In this document: positions 20,193-29,024 of the stretch, in pieces
Position numbering within the stretch: the first letter of the stretch is position 1
Layout: every line of letters begins with the position of its first letter
IMG/VR virus record: IMGVR_UViG_3300046492_000163
Span: 64,001-106,866 of that record
Source of the DNA: a virus
Lineage: Duplodnaviria > Heunggongvirae > Uroviricota > Caudoviricetes
Strand: one strand, 5' to 3'
Length of the DNA: 42,866 nucleotides
Position numbers and translations under genes: made by a program
Notes under the pieces: model-generated
The model's database searches: none
What the model was told of the DNA's origin: nothing
Seen by the model: the letters and a program-made list of their open reading frames with translations, nothing else

Positions 20193-20262
20193 GGAATCTC
20201 GCACACTAAATAATGGGTAAAGTGTACGAGAAAACTAAACGAAAAATACTTGGAGAGGGGGC

Positions 20263-20290
20263 TTGACAGCACAACGAAGTGTGGTATTTT
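20263..20290 (+). promoter_or_regulatory. Sigma70-type promoter, divergent from the one at 20165-20192
   Basis: TTGACA-16 nt-TATTTT. Confidence 0.6.
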
Positions 20291-20480
20291 CTACTTACAA
20301 TAATTTATAGAGTATAATGCTTTTAATTCTATTACTTATAAATACTCTATATCTTATCTATTCTATTACTTCTCTTCTTCTATACTCTATTACTCTATAT
20401 ATATTAACTCTTAGATATAATAACTCTATTATATCTTCTCTATACATTACTCTATATATAACAACTCTATGATATAGAGT
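20290..20480. repeat. AT-rich, G-poor tract with (T/A)ACTCTAT repeats; candidate replication origin
   Basis: (T/A)ACTCTAT at 20343, 20383, 20391, 20422, 20448 and 20463; inverted copy ATAGAGT at 20474-20480. Origin function is inference. Confidence 0.6.
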
Positions 20481-20559
20481 GCGGAGCTGGGCCAGAGCCC
20501 ACCCCTAGAGTAATGCCAGGCGACACGCTGTCGCACATCCCTTTACCCTGGAGTCCGCT

Positions 20560-20757
20560 ATGGATGACCTCCCCGTGTGCGAGAAGCACTTGTATGCCGA
20601 CGTGATGCCCCACAGTGGCCGTTGTCGCGTTTGTATCGAAGAGAGCAATGCAGACGCACGCCCCTATTTGGAAACAGCCCATATACTTGCAGAGGGCTGC
20701 CGAGAAGTTTTGAAGTATCTTCGCTCAATACAGAAAGATGAAGACGTTATCGATTGA
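20560..20757 (+). CDS. Small Cys/His-containing hypothetical protein
   Basis: GGAG SD; CEKH...CRVC possible Zn-binding motif. Confidence 0.5.
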   Translation: MDDLPVCEKHLYADVMPHSGRCRVCIEESNADARPYLETAHILAEGCREVLKYLRSIQKDEDVID

Positions 20758-20876
20758 TGCAAATCGATAGAAATCTACTATTGGTAAAAAATCGTACACT
20801 TTTGTAGTATGGGAGCGAACAAGGGCTTGGGCACTCCCAAGACTCTAAGAAAGTTGATTAAAGAGGTTGACGACAA

Positions 20877-21323
20877 ATGACACAGACATCTAGTAATCAA
20901 GTTAAGCCGGTCATCAAGTTTGTAAACGATAGTTCGGAGATTAGAGTCTGCTTTAAATCGAGTCGCGCAGTCAGCACCATACAGAAGATGCCCAATGGCA
21001 GGTACGTTGTTGTAAAAGTCTACGAAGAAGAAGTCACTGAGTGCGACAAATACTCAGAGGCCAAGCAGGAGGCTGAAAGTGCAGCGATGCTCCCAGCCAC
21101 CACCCACTCCACCCACCACTCAAAAGAGAACCCTGATTTAAAGGTTTGCTACAAGGCTGGCCGTGCTATCAGCACGATCCACAGGATGCCAGACGGCAAG
21201 TTCCAAGTGATCAAGCTGTACGAAGAGAAGGCAACCGCGCACTACGCCTTCGCCATAGCCGAGGAAGTCGCTACAAATGCTGAAATGAAGCAAGCACCTC
21301 GCACTAAGAAGGACGCCGCATAG
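20877..21323 (+). CDS. Hypothetical protein with a tandemly duplicated ~50-aa domain
   Basis: RVCFKSSRAVSTIQKMPNGRYVVVKVYEE versus KVCYKAGRAISTIHRMPDGKFQVIKLYEE. Confidence 0.75.
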   Translation: MTQTSSNQVKPVIKFVNDSSEIRVCFKSSRAVSTIQKMPNGRYVVVKVYEEEVTECDKYSEAKQEAESAAMLPATTHSTHHSKENPDLKVCYKAGRAISTIHRMPDGKFQVIKLYEEKATAHYAFAIAEEVATNAEMKQAPRTKKDAA

Positions 21324-21378
21324 GAAGGTCTGGAGTTGTGCCGAGCATCGAAAACATCGGAGTCAGTTTGGGGAAAGT

Positions 21379-21660
21379 ATGCGTTCGGCACATAGAGATA
21401 GAGAGTCGGTTAGGGATTTCGCGATGGCAGATATTGATACACGTAATGCAATAGCGGAGCAGATAGTCAGTAGTAGGAAAGAGCTAGGGTATACAGCCGC
21501 ACAGCTAGCAGAATCAGCAAACATCGCAGAGACGAACCTGATCCTGGTAGAAGGCGGCTTTGGTTTCGAAGGGAGTCATGAGGTTGCGGTAGCAGCCCTG
21601 ACGGCAATCCACCGACTGGAGACTTTGAGAGCCGGAACGGCCCACCTCCGAATAGTTTAA
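21379..21660 (+). CDS. XRE/Cro-like helix-turn-helix protein
   Basis: SRKELGYTAAQLAESANIAETNLILVEGG; alternative start at ATG 21424. Confidence 0.7.
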   Translation: MRSAHRDRESVRDFAMADIDTRNAIAEQIVSSRKELGYTAAQLAESANIAETNLILVEGGFGFEGSHEVAVAALTAIHRLETLRAGTAHLRIV

Positions 21661-21788
21661 GTATAGAAATTATGTCCACGAATTGACGAACCGGACGGGC
21701 CGTGACCCACTTGGTGCCTGATCCGGTTTTGTCTAGCCTGCCCCCACTCGCCCCTGAAAAATATTTTCTCTTACACTTCGATTGCCTC

Positions 21789-21816
21789 TTGACAAGTAGC
21801 AGAAGTGTCGTAGAAT
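21789..21816 (+). promoter_or_regulatory. Sigma70-type promoter for the RNA island
   Basis: TTGACA-16 nt-TAGAAT with an AT-rich upstream tract. Confidence 0.8.
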
Positions 21817-21830
21817 CCGTAGCTCAAGTC

Positions 21831-21896
21831 AGCCGCAAGGCTACTCCCCCGCTGTCGCCGCAAGGCAAGTATTCGCTTTAAGCCGCAAGGCTACTC
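21831..21896 (+). repeat. Three GCC-GCAA-GGC (GNRA tetraloop) hairpins in the 5' leader
   Basis: AGCCGCAAGGCTACTC at 21831 and 21881; GCCGCAAGGC at 21857. Confidence 0.8.
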
Positions 21897-21902
21897 AGTT
21901 TA

Positions 21903-22027
21903 AGAATCGTTCCAGCAACCCAATTTCATATCCCGCTAAGATCGAGGTCACAGGTTCGAATCCTGTCGCGTGCCCAGTAGGCTCGTGTAGCTCAGTTGGT
22001 AGAGCGCGTAGAAAACCCAACGATTCT
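21903..22027 (+). ncRNA. CAGCAA-family element A: circularly permuted tRNA-like RNA (YrlA-like topology)
   Basis: 9-bp closing stem AGAATCGTT/AACGATTCT; T-arm ACAGG-TTCGAAT-CCTGT precedes D-arm GCTC-AGTTGGTA-GAGC; acceptor halves CGCGTGCC and GGCTCGTG joined by a short loop. Confidence 0.8.
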
Positions 22028-22066
22028 GTTAACACAAAAATAAGACTATTTAAGGGACTAAACTAT

Positions 22067-23449
22067 TTGACCAGTTTCGCGACTGCGTTTAACAACGCCA
22101 CTACAACAACTAACGGCGACTTCGCCTATAAATCCACTCTGGACGCGAACGTAGACTTGTTCTACCAGGCCGGTGCCAGCCGTGGTAAAGAAATTGGAAC
22201 ACTCTTCGACCGGGCAGTTAGTACCAACGAAGAAGTGGCCGTCCGCACCCTACTCTGGTTGCGTGATGCACGAGAAGGTGCCGGTGAACGGCAACAGTTC
22301 AAGAACCTAGTTCTGCGACTGAAGCCTGAAGTTGTACAGAAGTTGATCCCGCTGATTCCAGAACTTGGCCGTTGGGATGATCTACTGGTCTTCTTGGACA
22401 CTCCGTTCGAACGTCAGGCCATGGGCGTAGTTGCCGCAGGCTTGAACATGGGCAACGGCCTGTGTGCGAAGTGGATGCCACGCAAGGGAATTGTGGCCGC
22501 GAAGATCCGCAAAGTCTTGGGCATCAAGAGCCCGAAGTTGTGGCGCCAGTACCTGGTGTCGCTGACTGACGTAGTTGAACAGAAGATGTGTTCCAAGGAC
22601 TGGAGCAGCATTGAGTTCGGCAAAGTTCCATCCGTAGCCGCTGGCCGCTACATCCAGGCTTTCCTCCGCAACGCACCCGATGCGTACAACGAGTACAAAG
22701 AGCGCCTGGTAAAAGGCGAAGCAAAGATTAATGCCGCTGCTGTTTATCCGTACGATGTAGTGAAGGCTCTTCGTAATGGTGATCCAGTTGTAGCAACAGC
22801 CCAATGGAACGCACTTCCGAATTACATGGAAGGAGTTGATGAACGCATTCTGCCGATGATTGATACATCCGGCTCGATGGGTTGTCCAGCGGGTGGTTAC
22901 AGCAGTAACTCCGGTACAACTTGCATGGATGTCGCTGTTTCCCTAGGGATCTATGTCGCACATCGCAACGTAGGCGCCTTCAAGAACATCATGTTGAGCT
23001 TCCACGCACAACCCAAGCTGTTCCAGTTCTCTGGCAACTTCGCTGAAGCGGTGCGACAAGTTGATAGTGCTCCATGGGGCATGAACACCGACATCGAGAA
23101 GGCCTTCATTGAAGTCCTGGCTCGTGCAAGATCACACAATGTCGCTCCGGACCAGATGCCAACCAAGGTATTGATCCTCAGTGATATGCAGTTCGACTTC
23201 TGTGTAAAAGGTATGGGTGCGTACGACAGCATCAAACGCCAGTACGCAGCATCGGGTTACGAACTACCGCAGATTGTCTTCTGGAACATCAATAGTTCCG
23301 CTGGCACTTCCCCGGTAACTATCGGAACTAAGGGAACTGCACTAGTTAGCGGGTTCTCGCCATCGATCCTCAAGGGGGTTGTAAGCGGTGAACTTGAACC
23401 AGCGAAAGTTATGCTCGCGACTGTAATGTCAGAGCGTTACGATTACTGA
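22067..23449 (+). CDS. Ro60/TROVE-like RNA-binding protein (DUF2828-type helical domain + C-terminal vWA)
   Basis: TTNGD...STLDANVDLF, LLWLRDAREGAGER, ELGRWDDL, AKWMPR, VPSVA, MIDAS motif MIDTSGSM, LILSDMQFD, IVFWN, ALVSGFSP. TTG start with AAGGG upstream. Confidence 0.8.
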   Translation: MTSFATAFNNATTTTNGDFAYKSTLDANVDLFYQAGASRGKEIGTLFDRAVSTNEEVAVRTLLWLRDAREGAGERQQFKNLVLRLKPEVVQKLIPLIPELGRWDDLLVFLDTPFERQAMGVVAAGLNMGNGLCAKWMPRKGIVAAKIRKVLGIKSPKLWRQYLVSLTDVVEQKMCSKDWSSIEFGKVPSVAAGRYIQAFLRNAPDAYNEYKERLVKGEAKINAAAVYPYDVVKALRNGDPVVATAQWNALPNYMEGVDERILPMIDTSGSMGCPAGGYSSNSGTTCMDVAVSLGIYVAHRNVGAFKNIMLSFHAQPKLFQFSGNFAEAVRQVDSAPWGMNTDIEKAFIEVLARARSHNVAPDQMPTKVLILSDMQFDFCVKGMGAYDSIKRQYAASGYELPQIVFWNINSSAGTSPVTIGTKGTALVSGFSPSILKGVVSGELEPAKVMLATVMSERYDY

Positions 23450-23473
23450 GTAAGAATTCCCCTCGGGGATATA

Positions 23474-23527
23474 AGGATGGTTACAGCAACCCAACTACTT
23501 TTATTGGAAAAAGAAAACTCCATCCTG
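23474..23527 (+). ncRNA. CAGCAA-family element B
   Basis: AGGATGG/CCATCCT stem, TTACAGCAA, internal CTTTT-ATTGGA-AAAAG hairpin. Confidence 0.7.
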
Positions 23528-23537
23528 TTTTGAATAT

Positions 23538-23613
23538 AGACGATTGGCGAAGTGAGAACGCAACCGGCTTTGAACCGGCTACGAGTATGGTTTGATTCCA
23601 TCATCGTCTACCA
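23538..23613 (+). tRNA. trnQ: tRNA-Gln (TTG)
   Basis: AGACGAT/ATCGTCT acceptor; CCGG-CTTTGAA-CCGG; encoded CCA. Confidence 0.88.
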
Positions 23614-23615
23614 AA

Positions 23616-23907
23616 TTCGAAGGTCAGTGACAAACTATCGGGAATAAGTATCCTGCGGAATAACCCGACCTTCGAACCCAACATACCTGGGAACTCAAGC
23701 GCCTTGGATATGTAACTCCACCTGTCAAACCAACTGACAGTGTGTAGATCGTACAGACGGCTGCGATTGATAAATCGCCGTCACCTAATACAGGTAACAC
23801 TGTTGTACATCGGCAACCTGGTAGGAAGAGTATTTGGCCCTCCTGCCCCTTCGCTAGGTTGTTTGACAGTATCGCAGTGGGCAGCAGGACATTACTCAAC
23901 CTGCTGC
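23616..23907 (+). ncRNA. Candidate structured RNA between tRNA-Gln and tRNA-Trp
   Basis: Several strong helices, e.g. TTCGAAGGTC/GACCTTCGAA and GCAGCAGG/CCTGCTGC; no convincing ORF. Confidence 0.45.
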
Positions 23908-23920
23908 TCCTTTAAATTCT

Positions 23921-23996
<76 letters not shown>

Positions 23997-24015
23997 AACT
24001 ATCACAAGGATGTGT

Positions 24016-24297
24016 ATGCGAGACTTGCAACAACAGTTTGACGATTACCATAGTTCAAATCCAGAAGTATACGAGTTATTTAAGAAGTTTACCTTCTCAG
24101 CGATTGCCGCTGGTAGACAAGTATTCTCTGTAGCTACAATCATCGAGCGTATACGCTGGGAAGCCGATGTAATCATTGACCGTACAGATGAATTCAAGAT
24201 AAATAACAATCACAAGCCGTTTTATGCTCGAAAGTTCATGGATGACTATCCAGAACATGCTGGGTTCTTTCGAACTAGATCGCAACACTACCATTAG
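24016..24297 (+). CDS. Phage hypothetical protein (93 aa)
   Basis: AAGGA SD then MRDLQQQFDDYHSSNPEVY...ERIRWE...KINNNHKPFYAR; the longer track ORF overlaps tRNA-Trp. Confidence 0.8.
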   Translation: MRDLQQQFDDYHSSNPEVYELFKKFTFSAIAAGRQVFSVATIIERIRWEADVIIDRTDEFKINNNHKPFYARKFMDDYPEHAGFFRTRSQHYH

Positions 24298-24314
24298 AGT
24301 AAAGGAATACACGC

Positions 24315-24458
24315 ATGGCAAATAAGCCTTACGATGCAACCAAGGAACACGCCCCATTCGACCGCACCAGGAAAACCGATGGCAAAGGCCGTCACCCGAA
24401 TAAAGGGTTGAGTTCGAAACACCCCGTCTCTGGAAAGATCAGCCGATACTTCCAGTGA
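24315..24458 (+). CDS. Small basic protein (47 aa)
   Basis: AAAGGA SD; MANKPYDATKEHAPFDRTRKTDGKGRHPNKGLSSKHPVSGKISRYFQ*. Confidence 0.55.
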   Translation: MANKPYDATKEHAPFDRTRKTDGKGRHPNKGLSSKHPVSGKISRYFQ

Positions 24459-24594
24459 TGTTGTTAGAGGGGCTACAGGAGCCACCAGGCTGCCCTCCGT
24501 TACTGGCTCGCCAGTTGATCGATGATCAGGTAACAACGCCCTGCCCCACTTGCATAGTGGCTGAGGCATTATCCTTGAGATAGTGCCGAACTCT

Positions 24595-24669
24595 GTATCC
24601 AAAGCTGACTCGGAGTAGCACTGGCTTGAAACCCCAGAGGACTTGGTTCGACTCCAAGTGGATGCACCA
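24595..24669 (+). tRNA. trnF: tRNA-Phe (GAA)
   Basis: GTATCCA/TGGATGC acceptor; loop TTGAAAC; CTTGG-TTCGACT-CCAAG; CCA. Confidence 0.82.
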
Positions 24670-24863
24670 AACAATAAGAACTCAGGTACTGGTTGAGTAC
24701 CCAACCTAGGATAAGGCGAAAAGCGCTTGGCCTGAGTTTTAGCTTGTACTGTCCTCACTGATCCGGGGACTTCGCGTTAGCGGGTAGAGGTCGATGATAT
24801 AAACCCGTAATTAATTCCAAGTAACTACTGTAAAATAAGTGTAAGACATTTACAGTTAGGGGC

Positions 24864-24891
24864 TTGACAAATAGAAAAAGTATGTTCTAAT
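24864..24891 (+). promoter_or_regulatory. Sigma70-type promoter upstream of tRNA-Asp
   Basis: TTGACA-16 nt-TCTAAT in an AT-rich gap. Confidence 0.7.
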
Positions 24892-24913
24892 ACCAAAACT
24901 TAGAAACAACTAA

Positions 24914-24989
24914 GCCGTATAGTTCCTCTGGGAAGGAAGACAGACTGTCGATCTGTTAGCTGAGGGTTCAAATCCCTTATATGGCGCCA
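24914..24989 (+). tRNA. trnD: tRNA-Asp (GTC)
   Basis: ACAGA-CTGTCGA-TCTGT; TTCAAAT T-loop; CCA. Confidence 0.9.
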
Positions 24990-25099
24990 AACACGTCAAT
25001 GTTGCCCAAGACTACTAACGCTGAAAAGTATTGTGTCGGATAACAGCGCTGTATCCTCTGTCCGGGGCTTGTCTCCGGTTACGTTACAGCCTTCTATAT

Positions 25100-25174
25100 A
25101 GTCGGGTAGCTCAGTGGTAGAGCAACTGCTTGATAAGCGGTTGGTCAAGTGTTCGAATCACTTTCCGACTACCA
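25100..25174 (+). tRNA. trnI: tRNA-Ile (GAT)
   Basis: ACTGC-TTGATAA-GCGGT; canonical D and T arms; CCA. Confidence 0.93.
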
Positions 25175-25182
25175 AGTTCTAA

Positions 25183-25251
25183 AGAGTGCTTACAGCAACC
25201 CAAACTGGAAAGCCTTAAAAGCTGCGGTTTCAATACCGCAAATGCACTCTG
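25183..25251 (+). ncRNA. CAGCAA-family element C
   Basis: AGAGTGC/GCACTCT stem, TTACAGCAA, AGC-CTTAAAA-GCT hairpin, GCGGT-TTCAAT-ACCGC T-like hairpin. Confidence 0.72.
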
Positions 25252-25263
25252 CGATCAAGTTCT

Positions 25264-25375
25264 AGGATGAATACAGCAAACAACTGTCCCGCCAAAATCT
25301 GGGAACGTAGTGTAAAGGCGCACGCCGAAGTTTACTTCGGAAGTCAGGGTTCGAATCCCGCGAAAAATCATCCTG
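25264..25375 (+). ncRNA. CAGCAA-family element D with an embedded tRNA core
   Basis: AGGATGA/TCATCCT stem, ATACAGCAA, D-like arm, CCGAAG-TTTA-CTTCGG, GGG-TTCGAAT-CCC; no acceptor stem or CCA. Confidence 0.72.
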
Positions 25376-25393
25376 ATAACTTCACTGAATCTC

Positions 25394-25467
25394 GGGCTGT
25401 AAGAATTACGACAGTTCGCCTGCCTTGCACGCAGGAAGCCAGGGTTTGACTCCCTGACGGTCCACCA
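25394..25467 (+). tRNA. trnA: tRNA-Ala (TGC)
   Basis: CCTGC-CTTGCAC-GCAGG; G3:U70 pair; CCA. Confidence 0.9.
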
Positions 25468-25571
25468 ATTGAAAGAAAAGACTTCCGGCCTAGCTGGTTC
25501 AAGTCGAACGGGGTTCGCCCCCTTTATTACGCAAGATACTCTTGCACAGAATTATCCCTCGGGATGATATA

Positions 25572-25632
25572 AGGCTGCTTACAGCAAACCATACTATTTG
25601 ACTCGTAAATCAAACCAAAGAATGGCAGCCTG
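25572..25632 (+). ncRNA. CAGCAA-family element E
   Basis: AGGCTGC/GCAGCCT stem, TTACAGCAA, TTTGA-CTCGTAAA-TCAAA hairpin. Confidence 0.7.
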
Positions 25633-25643
25633 TTTATATTTAT

Positions 25644-25725
25644 AGCGAGTTAGCTAAGACTGTCCGGTGATGTCAGACGGCTCATAACCCTCCGCTTTCG
25701 TGTTCAACTCACGGACTCGCTTCCA
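25644..25725 (+). tRNA. tRNA with CAT anticodon (Met or Ile2), atypical extended D region
   Basis: AGCGAGT/ACTCGCT acceptor; CTCATAA loop; CGTG-TTCAACT-CACG; CCA. Confidence 0.75.
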
Positions 25726-25792
25726 GAACGCTTGCTCCCCAAGCAGCTACAGTCGCCACGGACTGTATAAACAAGCGTGGCACAATTTCTAT

Positions 25793-25869
25793 TGGCTTCG
25801 TGCAGTCTAGGCGATTGCGGTCGGCTGTTAACCGACAGGTGCCCGGTTCGAATCCGGGGTGGCCAGCCA
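25793..25869 (+). tRNA. trnN: tRNA-Asn (GTT)
   Basis: GTCGG-CTGTTAA-CCGAC; CCCGG-TTCGAAT-CCGGG; CCA. Confidence 0.92.
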
Positions 25870-26121
25870 ACTTTGCGACGTGAGGTCTTCTGCCCACGAC
25901 CCTTCCGGGGATTACCTGGTAGCGGTGAGAGTCGCGTATTACAGGGAAGTTTGAATGACGATCACAAAGTTATATATGGACGACCACACCCGCGTGTTCC
26001 GCATTGGTGCTGGAAAACACGATGGTATCTGGTTTATCCGAGTTGATCTGTGGTCTATTGGATTCAGACTTCATTGGTAATCTGTCTGCTAGGCCCGGAC
26101 ATTAAATGGGCGACGAATTCA

Positions 26122-26206
26122 GGTTGTTTGCCCCGAGCGGCGAAGGGAACCGGCTGTAACCCGGCACAACGATACGTCCTAGGTTCGAGTCCTAGAACAA
26201 CCACCA
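26122..26206 (+). tRNA. trnY: tRNA-Tyr (GTA)
   Basis: CCGG-CTGTAAC-CCGG; long variable arm; CTAGG-TTCGAGT-CCTAG; CCA. Confidence 0.92.
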
Positions 26207-26210
26207 ATTT

Positions 26211-26293
26211 GCCGTATAGGTGCCACCCGAAAGCATTCTCCAATCAGGGGGTGTGCAGTGAGGGCAGGTTATCGTCCCCTTCCCAGGGCGGCA
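26211..26293 (+). pseudogene. Degenerate tRNA-like element
   Basis: Begins GCCGTATAG like tRNA-Asp; D-like GTGC/GCAT stem; CTCC-AATCA-GGGG; GAGGG/CCCTT stem with an enlarged loop; ends GCGGCA; no CCA. Confidence 0.35.
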
Positions 26294-26303
26294 GACGCGA
26301 TAT

Positions 26304-26392
26304 AGTAGATTGACCGAGCTGGACGAAGGTAGCGGTTTGCTAAACCGTAGGGTATAACAGCCCCGTGCGTTCGAATCGCACATCTACTGCCA
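26304..26392 (+). tRNA. trnS: tRNA-Ser (GCT)
   Basis: GCGGT-TTGCTAA-ACCGT; long variable arm; G73; CCA. Confidence 0.92.
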
Positions 26393-26408
26393 GATACAAG
26401 AGAGCATT

Positions 26409-26714
26409 ATGTGGACGAAGGGAAGACAAGGTACTGGGTATGCGAAGTTAACGCTTCTGGCAGCCTCCAGGCTTGATTGCCACGTTCTACGTTACATGCC
26501 TGGGGATTGCATCCCACCCCACACAGATAAGCTGGTGGATGGCAGGAAACACTTCAGGATGAATATCCGGCTAACCGGGGAAGATTCTTTCCAGTGTTGC
26601 AAGGTATTGTTCAAGTGGTGGCGGGTTACGATCTTCCGACCGGACCTCTATGAGCACTCAGTGCCCGCAGTTAAACGAACACGATACATGCTCAGCATTG
26701 GCTGGGTAATTTGA
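26409..26714 (+). CDS. Minimal 2-oxoglutarate/Fe(II)-dependent dioxygenase-fold protein
   Basis: LRYMPGDCIPPHTD (HxD), EHSV (distal His), RYMLSIGW (2OG-binding Arg). Confidence 0.75.
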   Translation: MWTKGRQGTGYAKLTLLAASRLDCHVLRYMPGDCIPPHTDKLVDGRKHFRMNIRLTGEDSFQCCKVLFKWWRVTIFRPDLYEHSVPAVKRTRYMLSIGWVI

Positions 26715-26719
26715 TACAA

Positions 26720-26804
26720 CGGCTTGTGGCGGAATTGGCAGACGCACCGGATTTAGGTTCCGGCGCCTTATGGCGTGAGAGTTCGACCCTCTCCGAGCCG
26801 ACCA
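26720..26804 (+). tRNA. trnL: tRNA-Leu (TAG)
   Basis: CCGGA-TTTAGGT-TCCGG; variable arm CGCC-TTAT-GGCG; CCA. Confidence 0.92.
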
Positions 26805-26856
26805 TTTAAAACGATTGACGGTTGAGCCCCTGCTCCCTCTCGTTAATAAGAAACAC

Positions 26857-26944
26857 GGCGTGTAGGCCCGATGGCGGGAAGCAGTCTTGAGAACTGTCCT
26901 ATTGCAGAGATGTGGTAAGAGTTCGATTCCCTTATGCGCCTCCA
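26857..26944 (+). tRNA. tRNA with TGA anticodon (nominally Ser), atypical identity elements
   Basis: GCAGT-CTTGAGA-ACTGT; long variable arm; G37 and U73; CCA. Confidence 0.7.
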
Positions 26945-27006
26945 CAACGTTTCCGGGTCAGTCCCGTATAAGAAAGACTTGCCCTTGCGGTAAGCGAACG
27001 CACAAA

Positions 27007-27038
27007 CAAAAACACCGGCCTAAGCCGGTGTCTTTATT
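27007..27038. terminator. Bidirectional intrinsic terminator between the tRNA transcript and mvaT
   Basis: A-run, ACACCGGC-CTAA-GCCGGTGT, then CTTTATT. Confidence 0.75.
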
Positions 27039-27049
27039 GCTAGGGACAA

Positions 27050-27436
27050 TCAGTCCAGCAGAGTTACCCACGATTCAACCATCTCGCCGCCGTACTTCTC
27101 TTTCCACTCTTTCAGAACCTTGTGATTACCGCCTTTGGTTTCAATCACTTCGCCGTTGTGCGGGTTCTTGTACTGCTTGACGCTACGCTGGCGGCGAGCC
27201 TTACCGGTAGCGTTAGTTGTAGCGGCCTTCTGAGGCTTAGACAGCTTTGCGTCTGGGTCCATGATGGACATCACATCACGAAGAGACTTGCTGTATTCGC
27301 CCATCAGGCTACGCAGTTTACCTTCGAACTCAAGCTCAGCTTGCAGGTTGCCGTCTTGCTGAAGATTAGCCAGGCGAGCTTGCAGTTCTTTGATTGCTTC
27401 TTCCGTGGCACGGAATTCATTGATCAACGAAGTCAT
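27050..27436 (-). CDS. mvaT: MvaT/MvaU (TurA-like) H-NS-family xenogeneic silencer
   Basis: SLINEFRATEEAIKELQARL...ELEFEGKLRSLMGEY and YKNPHNGEVIETKGGNHKVLKEWK match the Pseudomonas MvaT signature. Confidence 0.93.
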   Translation of the reverse strand: MTSLINEFRATEEAIKELQARLANLQQDGNLQAELEFEGKLRSLMGEYSKSLRDVMSIMDPDAKLSKPQKAATTNATGKARRQRSVKQYKNPHNGEVIETKGGNHKVLKEWKEKYGGEMVESWVTLLD

Positions 27437-27545
27437 GAGAATTTCCTATCAGTGCGTGTCGAGGTATTTGTTTGTTATGGGCCGAGAATATACAGCCGTT
27501 TAACTCGTGTCTAGTCCCTAGTGTAAAAGATTTTGAAAAATTTAT

Positions 27546-27621
27546 CTCGGTGTAGCTCAGATGGTGGAGCGCCTGATTTGGGATCAGGAGGTCGGAGGTT
27601 CGATCCCTCCCATCGTGACCA
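27546..27621 (+). tRNA. trnP: tRNA-Pro (TGG)
   Basis: CCTGA-TTTGGGA-TCAGG; CCA. Confidence 0.92.
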
Positions 27622-27628
27622 TATAAAT

Positions 27629-27704
27629 GGTGGGGTTGTACTGCCTGGATGCAGTCTTCCGGCTGTGACCCGGTTGATGCGGATCGAAACCGCGCCTCAC
27701 ACCA
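27629..27704 (+). tRNA. trnH: tRNA-His (GTG), atypical T-loop
   Basis: CCGG-CTGTGAC-CCGG; T-loop ATCGAAA; CCA. Confidence 0.75.
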
Positions 27705-27708
27705 ATTT

Positions 27709-27784
27709 GCCGCTATAGCTCCAACGGTAGAGCGCCTGACTTGTAATCAGGATGTTCGGGGTTCAAGTCCTCGTGGCGGCACCA
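27709..27784 (+). tRNA. trnT: tRNA-Thr (TGT)
   Basis: CCTGA-CTTGTAA-TCAGG; CCA. Confidence 0.93.
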
Positions 27785-27791
27785 ACTTTCT

Positions 27792-27864
27792 GCGGGTACG
27801 TACAAGGCGTATCACCGGCCTTCCAAGCCGTGTAGCTAGGGTTCGATTCCCTATATCCGCTCCA
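27792..27864 (+). tRNA. trnG: tRNA-Gly (TCC)
   Basis: CGGC-CTTCCAA-GCCG; U73; CCA. Confidence 0.9.
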
Positions 27865-27866
27865 AT

Positions 27867-27940
27867 CCTCAGTTAGCTCAATGGGAGAGCGGCGCCCTTA
27901 CAAGGCGTTTACGGTGGTTCGATTCCATCACCGAGGACCA
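27867..27940 (+). tRNA. trnV: tRNA-Val (TAC)
   Basis: GCGCC-CTTACAA-GGCGT; CCA. Confidence 0.9.
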
Positions 27941-27947
27941 ATCCTAT

Positions 27948-27971
27948 AACCCAGCCCTTGCTGGGTTTATT
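27948..27971 (+). terminator. Intrinsic terminator closing the tRNA array
   Basis: AACCCAGC-CCTT-GCTGGGTT-TATT. Confidence 0.7.
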
Positions 27972-27990
27972 CGTTTCAAGGAGATTCCGC

Positions 27991-28314
27991 ATGTCGGCAC
28001 ATAAGCGTGGGGACAGTTTCGACCGCCTCATTAATATCCCATCAGCGTTTGCAGACGGCTACTTCGTAGGGTGGACTGTATCCGCCCAGGTTCGAACCGC
28101 CCAGTACGGTGCAGCAATTGATGATCTTGTCTGTACCTGGATCGACCCCGTAAAGACCCGCATTCTTTCTATCAAACGCCTTGACACTAAGTTGTGGCCT
28201 ATCGGCCTGGCTGAGATGGACGTTCAATTCACTCGTGATTCAGACGGCTACACCACCAGCACTTCAACTCTCCAGTTCGAAGTCGTGCGTGATGTTACAC
28301 AGGGGATTACTTAA
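27991..28314 (+). CDS. Putative Ig-like/BppU-type virion appendage protein
   Basis: AAGGAG SD, ATG 27991; beta-rich pattern (AEMDVQFTR...STSTLQFEV); heads the fibre cluster. Confidence 0.6.
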   Translation: MSAHKRGDSFDRLINIPSAFADGYFVGWTVSAQVRTAQYGAAIDDLVCTWIDPVKTRILSIKRLDTKLWPIGLAEMDVQFTRDSDGYTTSTSTLQFEVVRDVTQGIT

Positions 28315-28529
28315 TGGCCTCCGGCAACTTCACGGTTACAAGTGCGCAACCCAATATGGTGCTCCTATCTGTTGGCCCTGAAGACGCTCCTGCCGAATTC
28401 GCAAGCGTACTTATCGGCCCCAAGGGTGATAAAGGCGACACCGGGGATATCGGAGATATTGGTGCTACTGACGATCTTGGTGGATTCACCACAAACCCTA
28501 CCGTCTATTACATTTTAGCGAGTACCTAA
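28314..28529 (+). CDS. Small collagen-like (G-X-Y) structural protein
   Basis: GPKGDKGDTGDIGDIG. Confidence 0.7.
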   Translation: MASGNFTVTSAQPNMVLLSVGPEDAPAEFASVLIGPKGDKGDTGDIGDIGATDDLGGFTTNPTVYYILAST

Positions 28530-28532
28530 TTT

Positions 28533-29024
28533 ATGCTCTTGCAAGAACAGATTGTTTCGTTGGCCCAAGCTATTGGCGCTGACATTAAAGCCCTTAAAGC
28601 GGCTGATGGCTCCCTCTCCCTTCTATCAACTACCGACAAGTCTTCCCTTGTTGCAGCTATCAACGAGCTGTTTACAAGCGGTGGTGGCGGTGGTGTATCG
28701 ATCAACGATGCAAGTACAACAAGTACCACGCAAACTTGGTCAGCTAATAAAAGCACAGCGGCAATTTCCGCAGCTATCACGGCCCTGCAAAACAGCCTGG
28801 TTAACGGTGCTGGCTCTGCCCTAGACACTTTCAAAGAGCTTCAGGACGCCCTAGGCGGTGATGCCAACTTCGCTACCACTGTAGCTACAGCACTGGGCAA
28901 CCGTGTCCGCTACGACGCAGTACAGAGCCTCACAGCTCCACAACAACTGCAAGCGTGTACGAACCTTGGCGTAGGCGATCCTACGCACAATTACGTGACC
29001 GATTATAACACTGCGAAGGCTTAA
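28533..29024 (+). CDS. Virion fibre-like structural protein
   Basis: IVSLAQAIGADIK, TDKSSLVAAINEL, ALDTFKELQDALGGDANFATTV fibre-type motifs. Confidence 0.75.
   Translation: MLLQEQIVSLAQAIGADIKALKAADGSLSLLSTTDKSSLVAAINELFTSGGGGGVSINDASTTSTTQTWSANKSTAAISAAITALQNSLVNGAGSALDTFKELQDALGGDANFATTVATALGNRVRYDAVQSLTAPQQLQACTNLGVGDPTHNYVTDYNTAKA

What the first reader, a model, noticed from the sequence alone, without database searches (positions are those of the whole stretch)
22067..23449. DUF2828-type Ro60/TROVE-like protein bracketed by its putative RNA ligands
Seen: a helical N-terminal region plus C-terminal vWA MIDAS (DTSGS). It is the only large CDS in the RNA island, follows promoter 21789 and element A, and element B starts 25 nt after its stop. 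Established: Ro60 has HEAT-ring + vWA architecture, and in bacteria it often occurs with RNA repair (RtcB) genes. Inference: this gene context assigns an RNA-binding role to a domain of unknown function. No RtcB is visible in this window.
Basis: partly seen in the sequence, partly recalled or inferred. Interest (0 to 1): 0.78.

Follow-up and report, generated by a model that had tools for sequence, protein, structure and literature searches.

The report
Phage Ro60-like protein with partner RNAs
A 107-kb phage encodes a distant relative of the ring-shaped RNA-binding protein Ro60 at the head of its tRNA gene cluster, next to small RNAs that share one conserved "handle" and are probably its partners; relatives of the protein were already labelled Ro-like, but these partner RNAs were not found described in the papers searched.

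Summary
ORF 22067-23449 (+, TTG start, 460 aa) matches Pfam DUF2828 + DUF7788, has a complete MIDAS motif, follows an 11/12 sigma-70-like promoter, and is the only large CDS in the RNA island.

- The AlphaFold model matches only Ro60/TROVE structures over its full length (Z 20.5, 407 residues against Xenopus Ro60).
- A profile-profile comparison with bacterial TROVE proteins gives 96.8% probability.
- Pfam's TROVE model does not match, so this is a sister family, not a TROVE member.

Element A is a YrlA-like permuted tRNA mimic. Element B and three more RNAs (C-E) among the tRNAs share a covarying 7-bp stem + (U/A)C-AGCAA + CUGUU handle.
- The handle sits on the gene strand in 73 of 80 viral DUF2828 loci, against 11 of 80 on the opposite strand.
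- It is absent from the T4 and T5 tRNA clusters and from TROVE-type loci, which carry the canonical GNCGAA handle instead.

The Ro-like identity is not new. It appears as PHROG 850 "RNA-binding protein", as the "Ro-like RNA binding protein" label on phage records, and in the PhageMaP preprint, where Bas63 gp130 (41% identical) counters the Ppl defence. The new part is the cognate RNA class. Earlier notes of this scan had already flagged these RNAs. RNA binding itself is inferred, not shown.

The parts
21789..21816 (+). sigma-70-like promoter TTGACA-16-TAGAAT, the likely start of the RNA-island transcript
   Evidence: 11 of 12 matches, best site in 20200-28600. The overall number of sites is not above the shuffled expectation, so function is inferred from position.
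21826..21898 (+). leader with three GCCGCAAGGC hairpins (GCAA loops) spaced exactly 25 nt apart
   Evidence: copies at 21832, 21857, 21882. Role unknown.
21899..22032 (+). element A: YrlA-like permuted tRNA mimic (T-arm, acceptor-like stem, D-arm) mounted on the stem + CCAGCAA + CUGUU handle; P1 is 21903-21909 paired with 22021-22027
   Evidence: Rfam YrlA 32.5 bits, below the gathering score of 69, tRNA-like core only. R1 110.7 bits. 16 of 24 pairs show compensatory changes in 12 homologues.
22052..22057 (+). Shine-Dalgarno-like AAGGGA, 9 nt before the TTG start
   Evidence: read directly from the sequence
22067..23449 (+). CDS, 460 aa: DUF2828 + DUF7788 protein, a Ro60-like helical domain plus vWA domain
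22067..22831 (+). N-terminal all-helical TROVE-like domain (residues about 1-255), holding all 10 invariant Arg/Lys
   Evidence: 10 of 47 invariant columns are K/R here against 0 of 33 in the vWA half, Fisher p = 0.004
22847..23401 (+). vWA domain (Pfam DUF7788, residues 264-439) with MIDAS D266-x-S268-x-S270 (nt 22862-22876), T341 and D373
   Evidence: aligned to the DVSGSM / T / D positions of TROVE proteins
23470..23531 (+). element B: mini Y-like RNA with the handle only (AGGAUGG-UUA-CAGCAA ... CCAUCCU-GUU) and no tRNA-like insert
   Evidence: (R1 30.2 bits)
23538..27940 (+). tRNA island: 13 ARAGORN tRNAs plus 2 further Rfam tRNA-like matches, all on the gene strand
25179..25255 (+). element C: handle RNA (AGAGUGC-UUA-CAGCAA ... 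GCACUCU-G)
25260..25379 (+). element D: handle RNA with a different insert that contains a T-arm-like hairpin
25568..25636 (+). element E: handle RNA (AGGCUGC-UUA-CAGCAA ... GCAGCCU-GUU)
   Evidence: (28.7 bits)
27948..27967 (+). terminator-like hairpin after the last tRNA; possible end of the island transcript
   Evidence: consensus match only

Best explanation
The gene encodes a phage Ro60-type protein of the DUF2828/DUF7788 lineage: a helical, Arg/Lys-rich TROVE-like domain followed by a vWA domain with an intact MIDAS site. It appears to be transcribed from the promoter at 21789 together with a YrlA-like tRNA mimic (A), a mini RNA (B), three further handle RNAs (C-E) and the phage tRNAs. 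All five small RNAs carry the same module: a covarying 7-bp closing stem, then (U/A)C-AGCAA on the 5' strand, and G-U-U after the 3' strand. I propose that this handle docks onto the protein, as the conserved stem/GNCGAA region of Y RNAs docks onto canonical Ro60. The variable inserts (permuted tRNA mimic, T-arm hairpin, or nothing) would then present different baits or tethers. By analogy with Rsr-Y RNA-PNPase and with the phage phiLo Ro60-Yrl-PNPase complex, the particle most likely engages host RNA-decay, tRNA-processing or defence enzymes during infection. The Bas63 orthologue is needed to overcome the Ppl defence. Shown here: the fold, the homology, the RNA structure and the co-occurrence. 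Inferred: binding, co-transcription and the cellular target.
For: Protein. Pfam DUF2828 + DUF7788 above cut-off. PHROG 850 'RNA-binding protein', E 1.6e-142. AlphaFold model pLDDT 81.8, pTM 0.78. Foldseek: the 13 best matches are all Ro60/TROVE, E 1.7e-9 to 1.4e-5. VIA-align: Z 20.5, rmsd 4.0 A, 407 residues against 1yvp_A; the top 10 are all Ro60/TROVE, including phage phiLo Ro60; the next matches are vWA only at Z <= 10. hhalign against 8 TROVE proteins: 96.8% probability, E 2.4e-10, 414 columns, MIDAS aligned. Invariant K/R residues lie only in the helical half.

RNA. The YrlA core is matched. RNAalifold finds 16 of 24 pairs with compensatory changes. Over 144 distinct sequences P1 is 98.5% paired and all 7 of its pairs covary, with no shuffle and no slid register coming close.

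Linkage.
- All 176 + 36 R1 matches near DUF2828 genes are on the gene strand.
- A handle sits on the gene strand in 73/80 viral and 68/80 genomic DUF2828 loci, against 11/80 and 27/80 on the opposite strand.
- Loci without any tRNA still have a handle RNA 19-105 nt from the gene.
- In the reverse direction, an IMG/VR scan for the handle gave 97 of 103 elements with all four unconstrained P1 positions paired. The gene is present in 46 of 76 contigs and in all 6 of the contigs looked up (those whose locus lacked the gene) that are >= 45% complete. The contigs without it are 2-32% complete fragments. For comparison, 710 of 50,697 phage records carry the gene.
- In the complete own genome R1 matches only inside the island.

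Specificity. T4 and T5, which have tRNA clusters but no DUF2828 gene, have no handle. TROVE-type loci carry the canonical GGCGAAUGC handle instead. The two types stay distinct in phages of the same host, M. smegmatis: Ghost is TROVE-type and Moostard is DUF2828-type.

Function. Bas63 gp130, 41% identical (E 1.2e-95) and in the same position ahead of the tRNAs, counters Ppl (PMC11482910).
Against: No experiment or computation here shows that the protein binds any RNA. Pfam's TROVE model does not match. The handle lacks the GNCGAA motif thought to contact canonical Ro60. Many handle RNAs lie kilobases from the gene among tRNAs, which also fits a role in transcript processing. Bas63 gp130 alone, expressed from a plasmid or from T7, restores growth on Ppl hosts without its own RNAs, so at least that activity may not need them. 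I could not examine ring closure or channel charge because no model coordinates were available. Z-scores for helical repeat proteins run high, although here the match also spans the vWA domain. The DUF2828 loci were chosen through the gene, and related phages share ancestry, so the counts are not independent events.
Confidence: 0.68

Rival explanations
1. The protein is Ro60-like, but the handle elements are not its ligands. They are cis-acting punctuation of long tRNA-island transcripts (sites for host RNases, or stabilising hairpins), or independent small RNAs, and they co-occur with the gene only because both belong to the same tRNA-rich module. The protein would act alone or on host RNAs.
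For: Handle RNAs are interspersed between tRNAs up to several kilobases from the gene. Their conserved UUUUAGG and CCUGUU edges could be cleavage sites. gp130 alone counters Ppl in T7, which lacks these RNAs.
Against: Handle RNAs sit next to the gene in loci that have no tRNA within 3 kb. T4 and T5 tRNA clusters, in the same host as the Felix O1-like phages, have none. Two phages of M. smegmatis use different handles according to which Ro-type protein they encode, which does not fit a host-RNase signal. One member of the class is a full YrlA-type tRNA mimic, the known Ro60 partner.
Confidence: 0.17
2. The protein and the RNAs do form a particle, but its job is housekeeping for the phage: quality control or maturation of the phage's own tRNA cluster transcripts (capturing misfolded pre-tRNAs and handing them to host exonucleases), not counter-defence.
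For: 43 of 80 viral loci have tRNA genes within 3 kb, all on the gene strand. Canonical Ro60 binds misfolded non-coding RNA ends and works with PNPase (PMC4201824). gp130 improved T7 plating even beyond the no-defence control.
Against: 37 of 80 loci have no tRNA within 3 kb. gp130 is dispensable on ordinary hosts but needed on Ppl hosts. Nothing here tests tRNA maturation.
Confidence: 0.1
3. The Ro60-like shape is vestigial. The protein works as a vWA/MIDAS protein-protein adaptor or inhibitor with no RNA role.
For: The MIDAS residues are invariant. Some records label the protein only 'vWFA protein'.
Against: The helical half is as conserved as the vWA half and holds all the invariant Arg/Lys. 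There is tight same-strand linkage to a structured RNA family.
Confidence: 0.05

Closest known systems
Bacterial Ro60 (Rsr) with YrlA/YrlB Y RNAs (Salmonella, M. smegmatis, D. radiodurans; Chen et al. 2014, PMC4201824; Rfam RF02553)
   Same: Helical ring-type domain plus vWA/MIDAS. Full-length structural match and profile-level homology. The gene is flanked on the same strand by a permuted tRNA-mimic RNA and by a smaller RNA without the mimic (like YrlB). There are several partner RNAs per genome.
   Different: Pfam TROVE and vWA_Ro60 do not match; the protein belongs to DUF2828 + DUF7788 and its helical domain is about 100 residues shorter. The RNA handle is stem + (U/A)C-AGCAA + CUGUU rather than GNCGAA(N)G in a long bulged stem. 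Element A scores 32.5 bits against a gathering score of 69. There is no RtcB/RtcA context; the gene heads a phage tRNA island.
Thermus phage phiLo Ro60 with Yrl1/Yrl2 (PMC12135203; PDB 9kop, 9l5y)
   Same: A phage-encoded Ro60 of about 460-500 aa with two adjacent Y-like RNAs. It is among the top structural matches (Z 15.9-17.1). It was shown to bind its RNAs and host PNPase.
   Different: phiLo Ro60 is TROVE-type and its RNAs carry the CGAA motif. At sequence-profile level the only similarity is at the MIDAS site (E 0.018). Nothing comparable has been measured for the DUF2828 type.
Escherichia phage Bas63 (JohannRWettstein) gp130, counter of the Ppl defence (PhageMaP preprint, PMC11482910)
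   Same: Same family (41% identity over residues 6-458, E 1.2e-95). Same position directly upstream of the tRNA cluster. Its genome also holds handle RNAs, including an unannotated YrlA-like one at MZ501086:82777-82911.
   Different: A different phage lineage and host. The authors guessed that some annotated tRNAs might be Y RNAs and did not identify the handle RNAs. Whether the window's protein counters Ppl is untested.
'Ro-like RNA binding protein' of actinobacteriophage records and PHROG 850 'RNA-binding protein'
   Same: The window's protein is a member of PHROG 850. Mycobacteriophage Moostard gp54 (DUF2828 + DUF7788) bears the Ro-like label and is followed by three handle RNAs.
   Different: The same label is also given to true TROVE-type proteins such as Ghost gp232, so the label hides two families with two different RNA handles.

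Membership tests
Pfam DUF2828 (PF11443) + DUF7788 (PF25043) | Both profile HMMs matched above their gathering scores | tested here: met
   78.6 bits (cut-off 29) and 142.6 bits (cut-off 27.1); the same two domains are recorded for every listed homologue
PHROG 850 (phage 'RNA-binding protein') | Full-length match to the family profile | tested here: met
   E 1.6e-142, residues 6-459 on profile positions 11-475 of 476
Ro60 / TROVE (Pfam PF05731 + vWA_Ro60 PF25045) | Match to the TROVE profile HMM | tested here: not met
   No match at E <= 1 for the protein or at E <= 10 in the whole genome. The positive control, Ghost gp232, matches at 170.5 bits.
Ro60 / TROVE (Pfam PF05731 + vWA_Ro60 PF25045) | Architecture: alpha-helical repeat domain followed by a vWA domain, superposable over the full length | tested here: met
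   Z 20.5, rmsd 4.0 A, 407 of 460 residues on 1yvp_A; the 10 best chains are all Ro60/TROVE; Foldseek E 1.7e-9
Ro60 / TROVE (Pfam PF05731 + vWA_Ro60 PF25045) | Detectable common ancestry at profile level | tested here: met
   hhalign 96.8% probability, E 2.4e-10, 414 columns against 8 proteobacterial TROVE proteins
Ro60 / TROVE (Pfam PF05731 + vWA_Ro60 PF25045) | MIDAS motif (DxSxS ... T ... D) in the vWA domain | tested here: met
   D266, S268, S270, T341 and D373 are invariant and align to the same motif in TROVE proteins
Ro60 / TROVE (Pfam PF05731 + vWA_Ro60 PF25045) | Closed ring with a basic central cavity | not testable with these tools
   Model coordinates are not exposed. The only indirect evidence is that conserved K/R residues are confined to the helical half.
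Ro60 / TROVE (Pfam PF05731 + vWA_Ro60 PF25045) | Binds Y RNA and misfolded RNA ends | not testable with these tools
Ro60-Y RNA system | Partner RNA encoded next to the gene on the same strand, with a closing stem, a large internal loop and (YrlA class) a tRNA-like domain | tested here: met
   Element A ends about 35 nt upstream of the gene; T-arm, acceptor-like stem and D-arm in YrlA order
Ro60-Y RNA system | Conserved GNCGAA(N)G Ro-binding motif near the RNA 5' end | tested here: not met
   The motif is replaced by (U/A)C-AGCAA in 113 of the 150 best matches. TROVE-type loci do show GGCGAAUGC.
Rfam YrlA (RF02553), for element A | Score at or above the gathering threshold of 69 bits | tested here: not met
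   32.5 bits, model positions 24-84 only. Moostard's RNA scores 37.9 bits over the full length. Canonical loci score 60-76 bits.
Ppl-countering gp130 group (Bas63) | Orthology by sequence and position | tested here: met
   41% identity, E 1.2e-95; both genes sit directly upstream of the tRNA cluster
Ppl-countering gp130 group (Bas63) | Relieves Ppl-mediated restriction | not tested
   Needs a plaque assay; known only for Bas63 gp130 (PMC11482910)

The most novel reading that the evidence does not exclude
DUF2828-type proteins with their CAGCAA-handle RNAs form a second, phage-centred Ro-Y ribonucleoprotein lineage, commoner in phages than the canonical type. In this reading one protein is loaded with a set of interchangeable RNA 'cartridges' (permuted tRNA mimic, linear tRNA-like core, bare handle). 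These act as decoys or tethers for host tRNA-directed nucleases, PNPase or defence proteins such as Ppl, so the RNAs, not the protein alone, set which host factor is neutralised.
Probability: 0.3. Interest if true: 0.8.

Novelty: new variant of a known kind. Interest (0 to 1): 0.55.

Why it matters
The protein family is widespread. It is present in 710 of 50,697 phage records, including Felix O1-like coliphages, Listeria, Staphylococcus and Enterococcus myoviruses, Campylobacter phages, KVP40 and mycobacteriophages. That is about twice as many records as carry canonical Ro60, yet Pfam still lists it as two domains of unknown function. One member has a measured anti-defence phenotype with no known mechanism. 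Identifying a specific, easily recognised RNA handle that travels with the gene gives that problem concrete reagents. The RNAs can be transcribed, mutated in the handle, and tested for binding and for their effect on Ppl or on RNA decay. It also shows that many 'intergenic' stretches, and some tiny opposite-strand ORFs, in phage tRNA clusters are really structured RNA genes.

Tried and rejected
- phmmer of the protein against PDB sequences found nothing meaningful (best E 0.42).
- The A1 profile against PDB sequences matched the phiLo TROVE protein only at the MIDAS site (E 0.018).
- NCBIfam and PADLOC gave no match.
- Megablast of the region against phage records matched only tRNA-Trp.
- RtcB, Rnl2-type RNA ligase and CCA-adding enzyme were sought in the complete genome and not found. 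The RNA-repair context known from bacteria is therefore absent.
- The R1 matches in T4 and T5 looked at first like counter-examples. Their alignments show tandem tRNAs (the T-arm of one plus the D-arm of the next) with no P1 stem, and the model-free handle finder finds none there.
- MFE folding of A and B alone is not better than shuffles (z -1.2 and -0.9). Support for the structures comes from covariation, not from energy.
- Supplementary tables of Chen et al. 2014 are not held, so I could not check which 22 phages they listed.
- Complex prediction was not used because it takes no RNA.

Full report
**What is there**

The window is the right-hand 42.9 kb of a complete 106,866-bp virus record with direct terminal repeats. 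ORF 22067-23449 (+) is real: 460 aa, TTG start, an AAGGGA ribosome-binding site 9 nt upstream, and homologues that align from the first residue. It follows the best sigma-70-like site of the region (21789-21816, 11 of 12 matches). It heads an island of 13-15 tRNA genes, all on the same strand. The other ORFs with family support in the island are 94 and 101 aa, so it is the only large CDS there. The genes upstream, on the opposite strand, are a PhoH-like ATPase and an HNH endonuclease.

**The protein**

- Pfam gives DUF7788 (142.6 bits) and DUF2828 (78.6 bits). PHROGs gives family 850, 'RNA-binding protein', E 1.6e-142.
- Pfam's TROVE model does not match, either in the protein or anywhere in the genome. 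Plain sequence search of the PDB finds nothing.
- An AlphaFold model built on 33 homologues (pLDDT 81.8, pTM 0.78) is all-helical to about residue 255 and alpha/beta after that.
- Foldseek's 13 matches with E <= 0.001 are all Ro60/TROVE structures: Xenopus, human, Deinococcus Rsr and Thermus phage phiLo. They align over about 500 columns. The next matches are isolated vWA domains.
- VIA-align gives Z 20.5, rmsd 4.0 A over 407 residues to Xenopus Ro60. The ten best chains are all Ro60/TROVE, and then the score drops to Z <= 10 for vWA domains alone.
- I collected eight TROVE proteins from Pseudomonadota genomes. A profile-profile comparison with the DUF2828 alignment gives 96.8% probability, E 2.4e-10, over 414 columns, with the MIDAS residues in register.
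- D266, S268, S270, T341 and D373 are invariant. All ten invariant Arg/Lys lie in the helical half: 10 of 47 invariant columns there against 0 of 33 in the vWA half, p = 0.004.

The protein is therefore a remote homologue of Ro60 with the same two-domain plan. It belongs to a separate sequence family and has a helical domain about 100 residues shorter.

**The flanking RNAs**

- Element A (21899-22032) matches the tRNA-like core of Rfam YrlA: T-arm, acceptor-like stem and D-arm in permuted order. It scores 32.5 bits against a gathering score of 69. A stem AGAAUCG/CGAUUCU closes it.
- Eleven similar elements beside DUF2828 genes in IMG/VR contigs align with it. RNAalifold finds 24 pairs, 16 of them with compensatory changes.
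- A covariance model built from these sequences (R1) found 176 matches in 81 sources, every one on the gene strand.
- Over 144 distinct sequences the closing stem is 98.5% paired and all seven of its pairs covary. No shuffle and no slid register comes near this.
- Most matches are short (about 60-70 nt) and lack the tRNA-like insert. What they share is a handle: UUUUAGG-nnnn, then U(U/A)C-AGCAA, then a variable insert, then nnnn-CCU-GUU.
- Element B (23470-23531) is such a mini RNA. Its stem starts 25 nt after the stop codon.
- Three more lie between tRNAs: C 25179-25255, D 25260-25379 and E 25568-25636.
- In the whole genome R1 matches only inside this island.

**Is the handle tied to the gene?**

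- A model-free finder (7-bp stem, 2-3 nt spacer, core hexamer, G after the 3' stem) finds a handle on the gene strand in 73 of 80 viral DUF2828 loci, against 11 of 80 on the opposite strand (184 against 12 elements). In bacterial or MAG loci the figures are 68 against 27 of 80.
- Matches pile up within 250 nt of the gene: 48 upstream and 15 downstream. They are present in loci that have no tRNA within 3 kb.
- In the reverse direction, a pattern scan of IMG/VR for the handle returned at least 120 stretches. In 97 of 103 elements the four unconstrained stem positions all pair; about 2% would be expected by chance.
- 26 of 76 such loci contain the gene, always on the same strand. 20 more contigs have it elsewhere on the contig. 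All six of those looked-up contigs that are at least 45% complete have it. Those without it are 2-32% complete fragments.
- Only 710 of 50,697 phage records (1.4%) carry the gene.

**Controls**

- T4 and T5 have tRNA clusters but no DUF2828 gene. They give only tandem-tRNA artefacts without a stem.
- TROVE-type genes are followed by canonical YrlA (60-76 bits) with the GGCGAAUGC handle. R1 sees only their tRNA-like core.
- The most telling control uses two phages of the same host, M. smegmatis mc2 155. Ghost gp232 is TROVE + vWA_Ro60, and its RNA has a long stem and no CAGCAA. Moostard gp54 is DUF2828 + DUF7788 and is followed by three tandem handle RNAs and a terminator.
- The handle therefore tracks the protein family and not the host. 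This argues against a host-RNase signal.

**What is already known**

- Papers that mention DUF2828 or DUF7788 say nothing about function.
- The Ro-like reading nevertheless exists in practice. PHROG 850 is named 'RNA-binding protein', and many records call the protein 'Ro-like RNA binding protein', 'putative ribonucleoprotein' or 'vWFA protein'.
- The PhageMaP preprint reports that Bas63 gp130 is structurally similar to Ro60 and lies directly upstream of the tRNAs. It is required against the Ppl defence and suffices from a plasmid or from T7. The authors guessed that some annotated tRNAs are Y RNAs (PMC11482910).
- I verified that bas63_0130 is a homologue of the window's protein (41% identity, E 1.2e-95). 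Bas63 carries four handle RNAs, including an unannotated YrlA-like one at 82777-82911, under two tiny opposite-strand ORFs.
- Canonical phage Ro60 with Y-like RNAs and PNPase binding is documented for phiLo (PMC12135203). YrlA next to TROVE genes in 22 phages was reported in 2014 (PMC4201824).
- Earlier notes of this scan on the same genome had already flagged element A, the five CAGCAA RNAs and element D. My results agree with them and were obtained before I read them.

**Mechanism and verdict**

The most likely reading (0.68) is that the protein docks on the handle, so that one protein carries a small repertoire of RNAs whose inserts mimic tRNA in different ways. The particle would act on host RNA-decay, tRNA-processing or defence factors. 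The binding, the co-transcription and the target are all inferred. The main rival (0.17) is that the handle RNAs are processing or stability elements, or independent small RNAs, and that the protein works without them. The sufficiency of gp130 alone in T7 keeps that rival alive.

As a finding about the protein, this is a confirmed but largely anticipated annotation. Taken as a system (a second Ro-type family with its own RNA handle) it is a new variant of a known kind and is readily testable.

Noticed in passing
window 21826-21898 (+); a further copy on the - strand near 1097: Three GCCGCAAGGC hairpins (GCAA tetraloops) start exactly 25 nt apart (21832, 21857, 21882) between the promoter and element A. 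A fourth copy with the same GGCUACU tail lies on the opposite strand near position 1097. Their role is unknown; they could stabilise or process the leader.
   Followed up: partly
window 26857-26941 and 27792-27861 (+): Rfam's tRNA model matches two further stretches that ARAGORN did not call (28.0 bits, just under the gathering score of 29, and 32.6 bits). The island may therefore hold 14-15 tRNA-like genes rather than 13.
   Followed up: no
L304:3278-3412 (MZ501086:82777-82911); L084:6349-6483 (wV8): In the Felix O1-like phages Bas63 and wV8, the YrlA-like handle RNA is unannotated. It is overlapped by small hypothetical CDSs on the opposite strand (bas63_0137 and bas63_0138; wV8 gene 48), which are therefore probably not genes.
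   Followed up: partly
L083:4426-4684 (Mycobacterium phage Moostard): Three handle RNAs in tandem (mini, tRNA-like, mini) fill the gap after the Ro-like gene gp54 and are followed by a terminator-like hairpin. Here the stem begins GUGGAC and ends GUCCAG-U, so only GG...CC(U/A)GU and ACAGCAA are conserved across phyla.
   Followed up: partly
L047:5968-6044, L074:1368-1444, L074:725-1064: Two viral contigs with a DUF2828 gene also carry a tRNA with a CUA anticodon (called tRNA-Pyl by ARAGORN, a possible amber suppressor). One of them also has a tmRNA-like gene in the same cluster.
   Followed up: no
W03 (Vibrio phage KVP40) 175920-181165 (-): KVP40 has five full-length R1-type matches in its tRNA region (plus one partial, tandem-tRNA-type match), 7-12 kb from its DUF2828 gene (168.3-168.9 kb, same strand). 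Gene and RNAs are not always adjacent.
   Followed up: no
window 24013-24297 and 26409-26714 (+): Two small ORFs embedded among the tRNAs match PHROGs of unknown function (13625 and 13746). These are conserved small proteins of phage tRNA islands.
   Followed up: no
phage records: The label 'Ro-like RNA binding protein' is applied to two different Pfam architectures (TROVE + vWA_Ro60, and DUF2828 + DUF7788). These occur in 368 and 710 phage records respectively, and the DUF2828 type has a far wider host range.
   Followed up: yes
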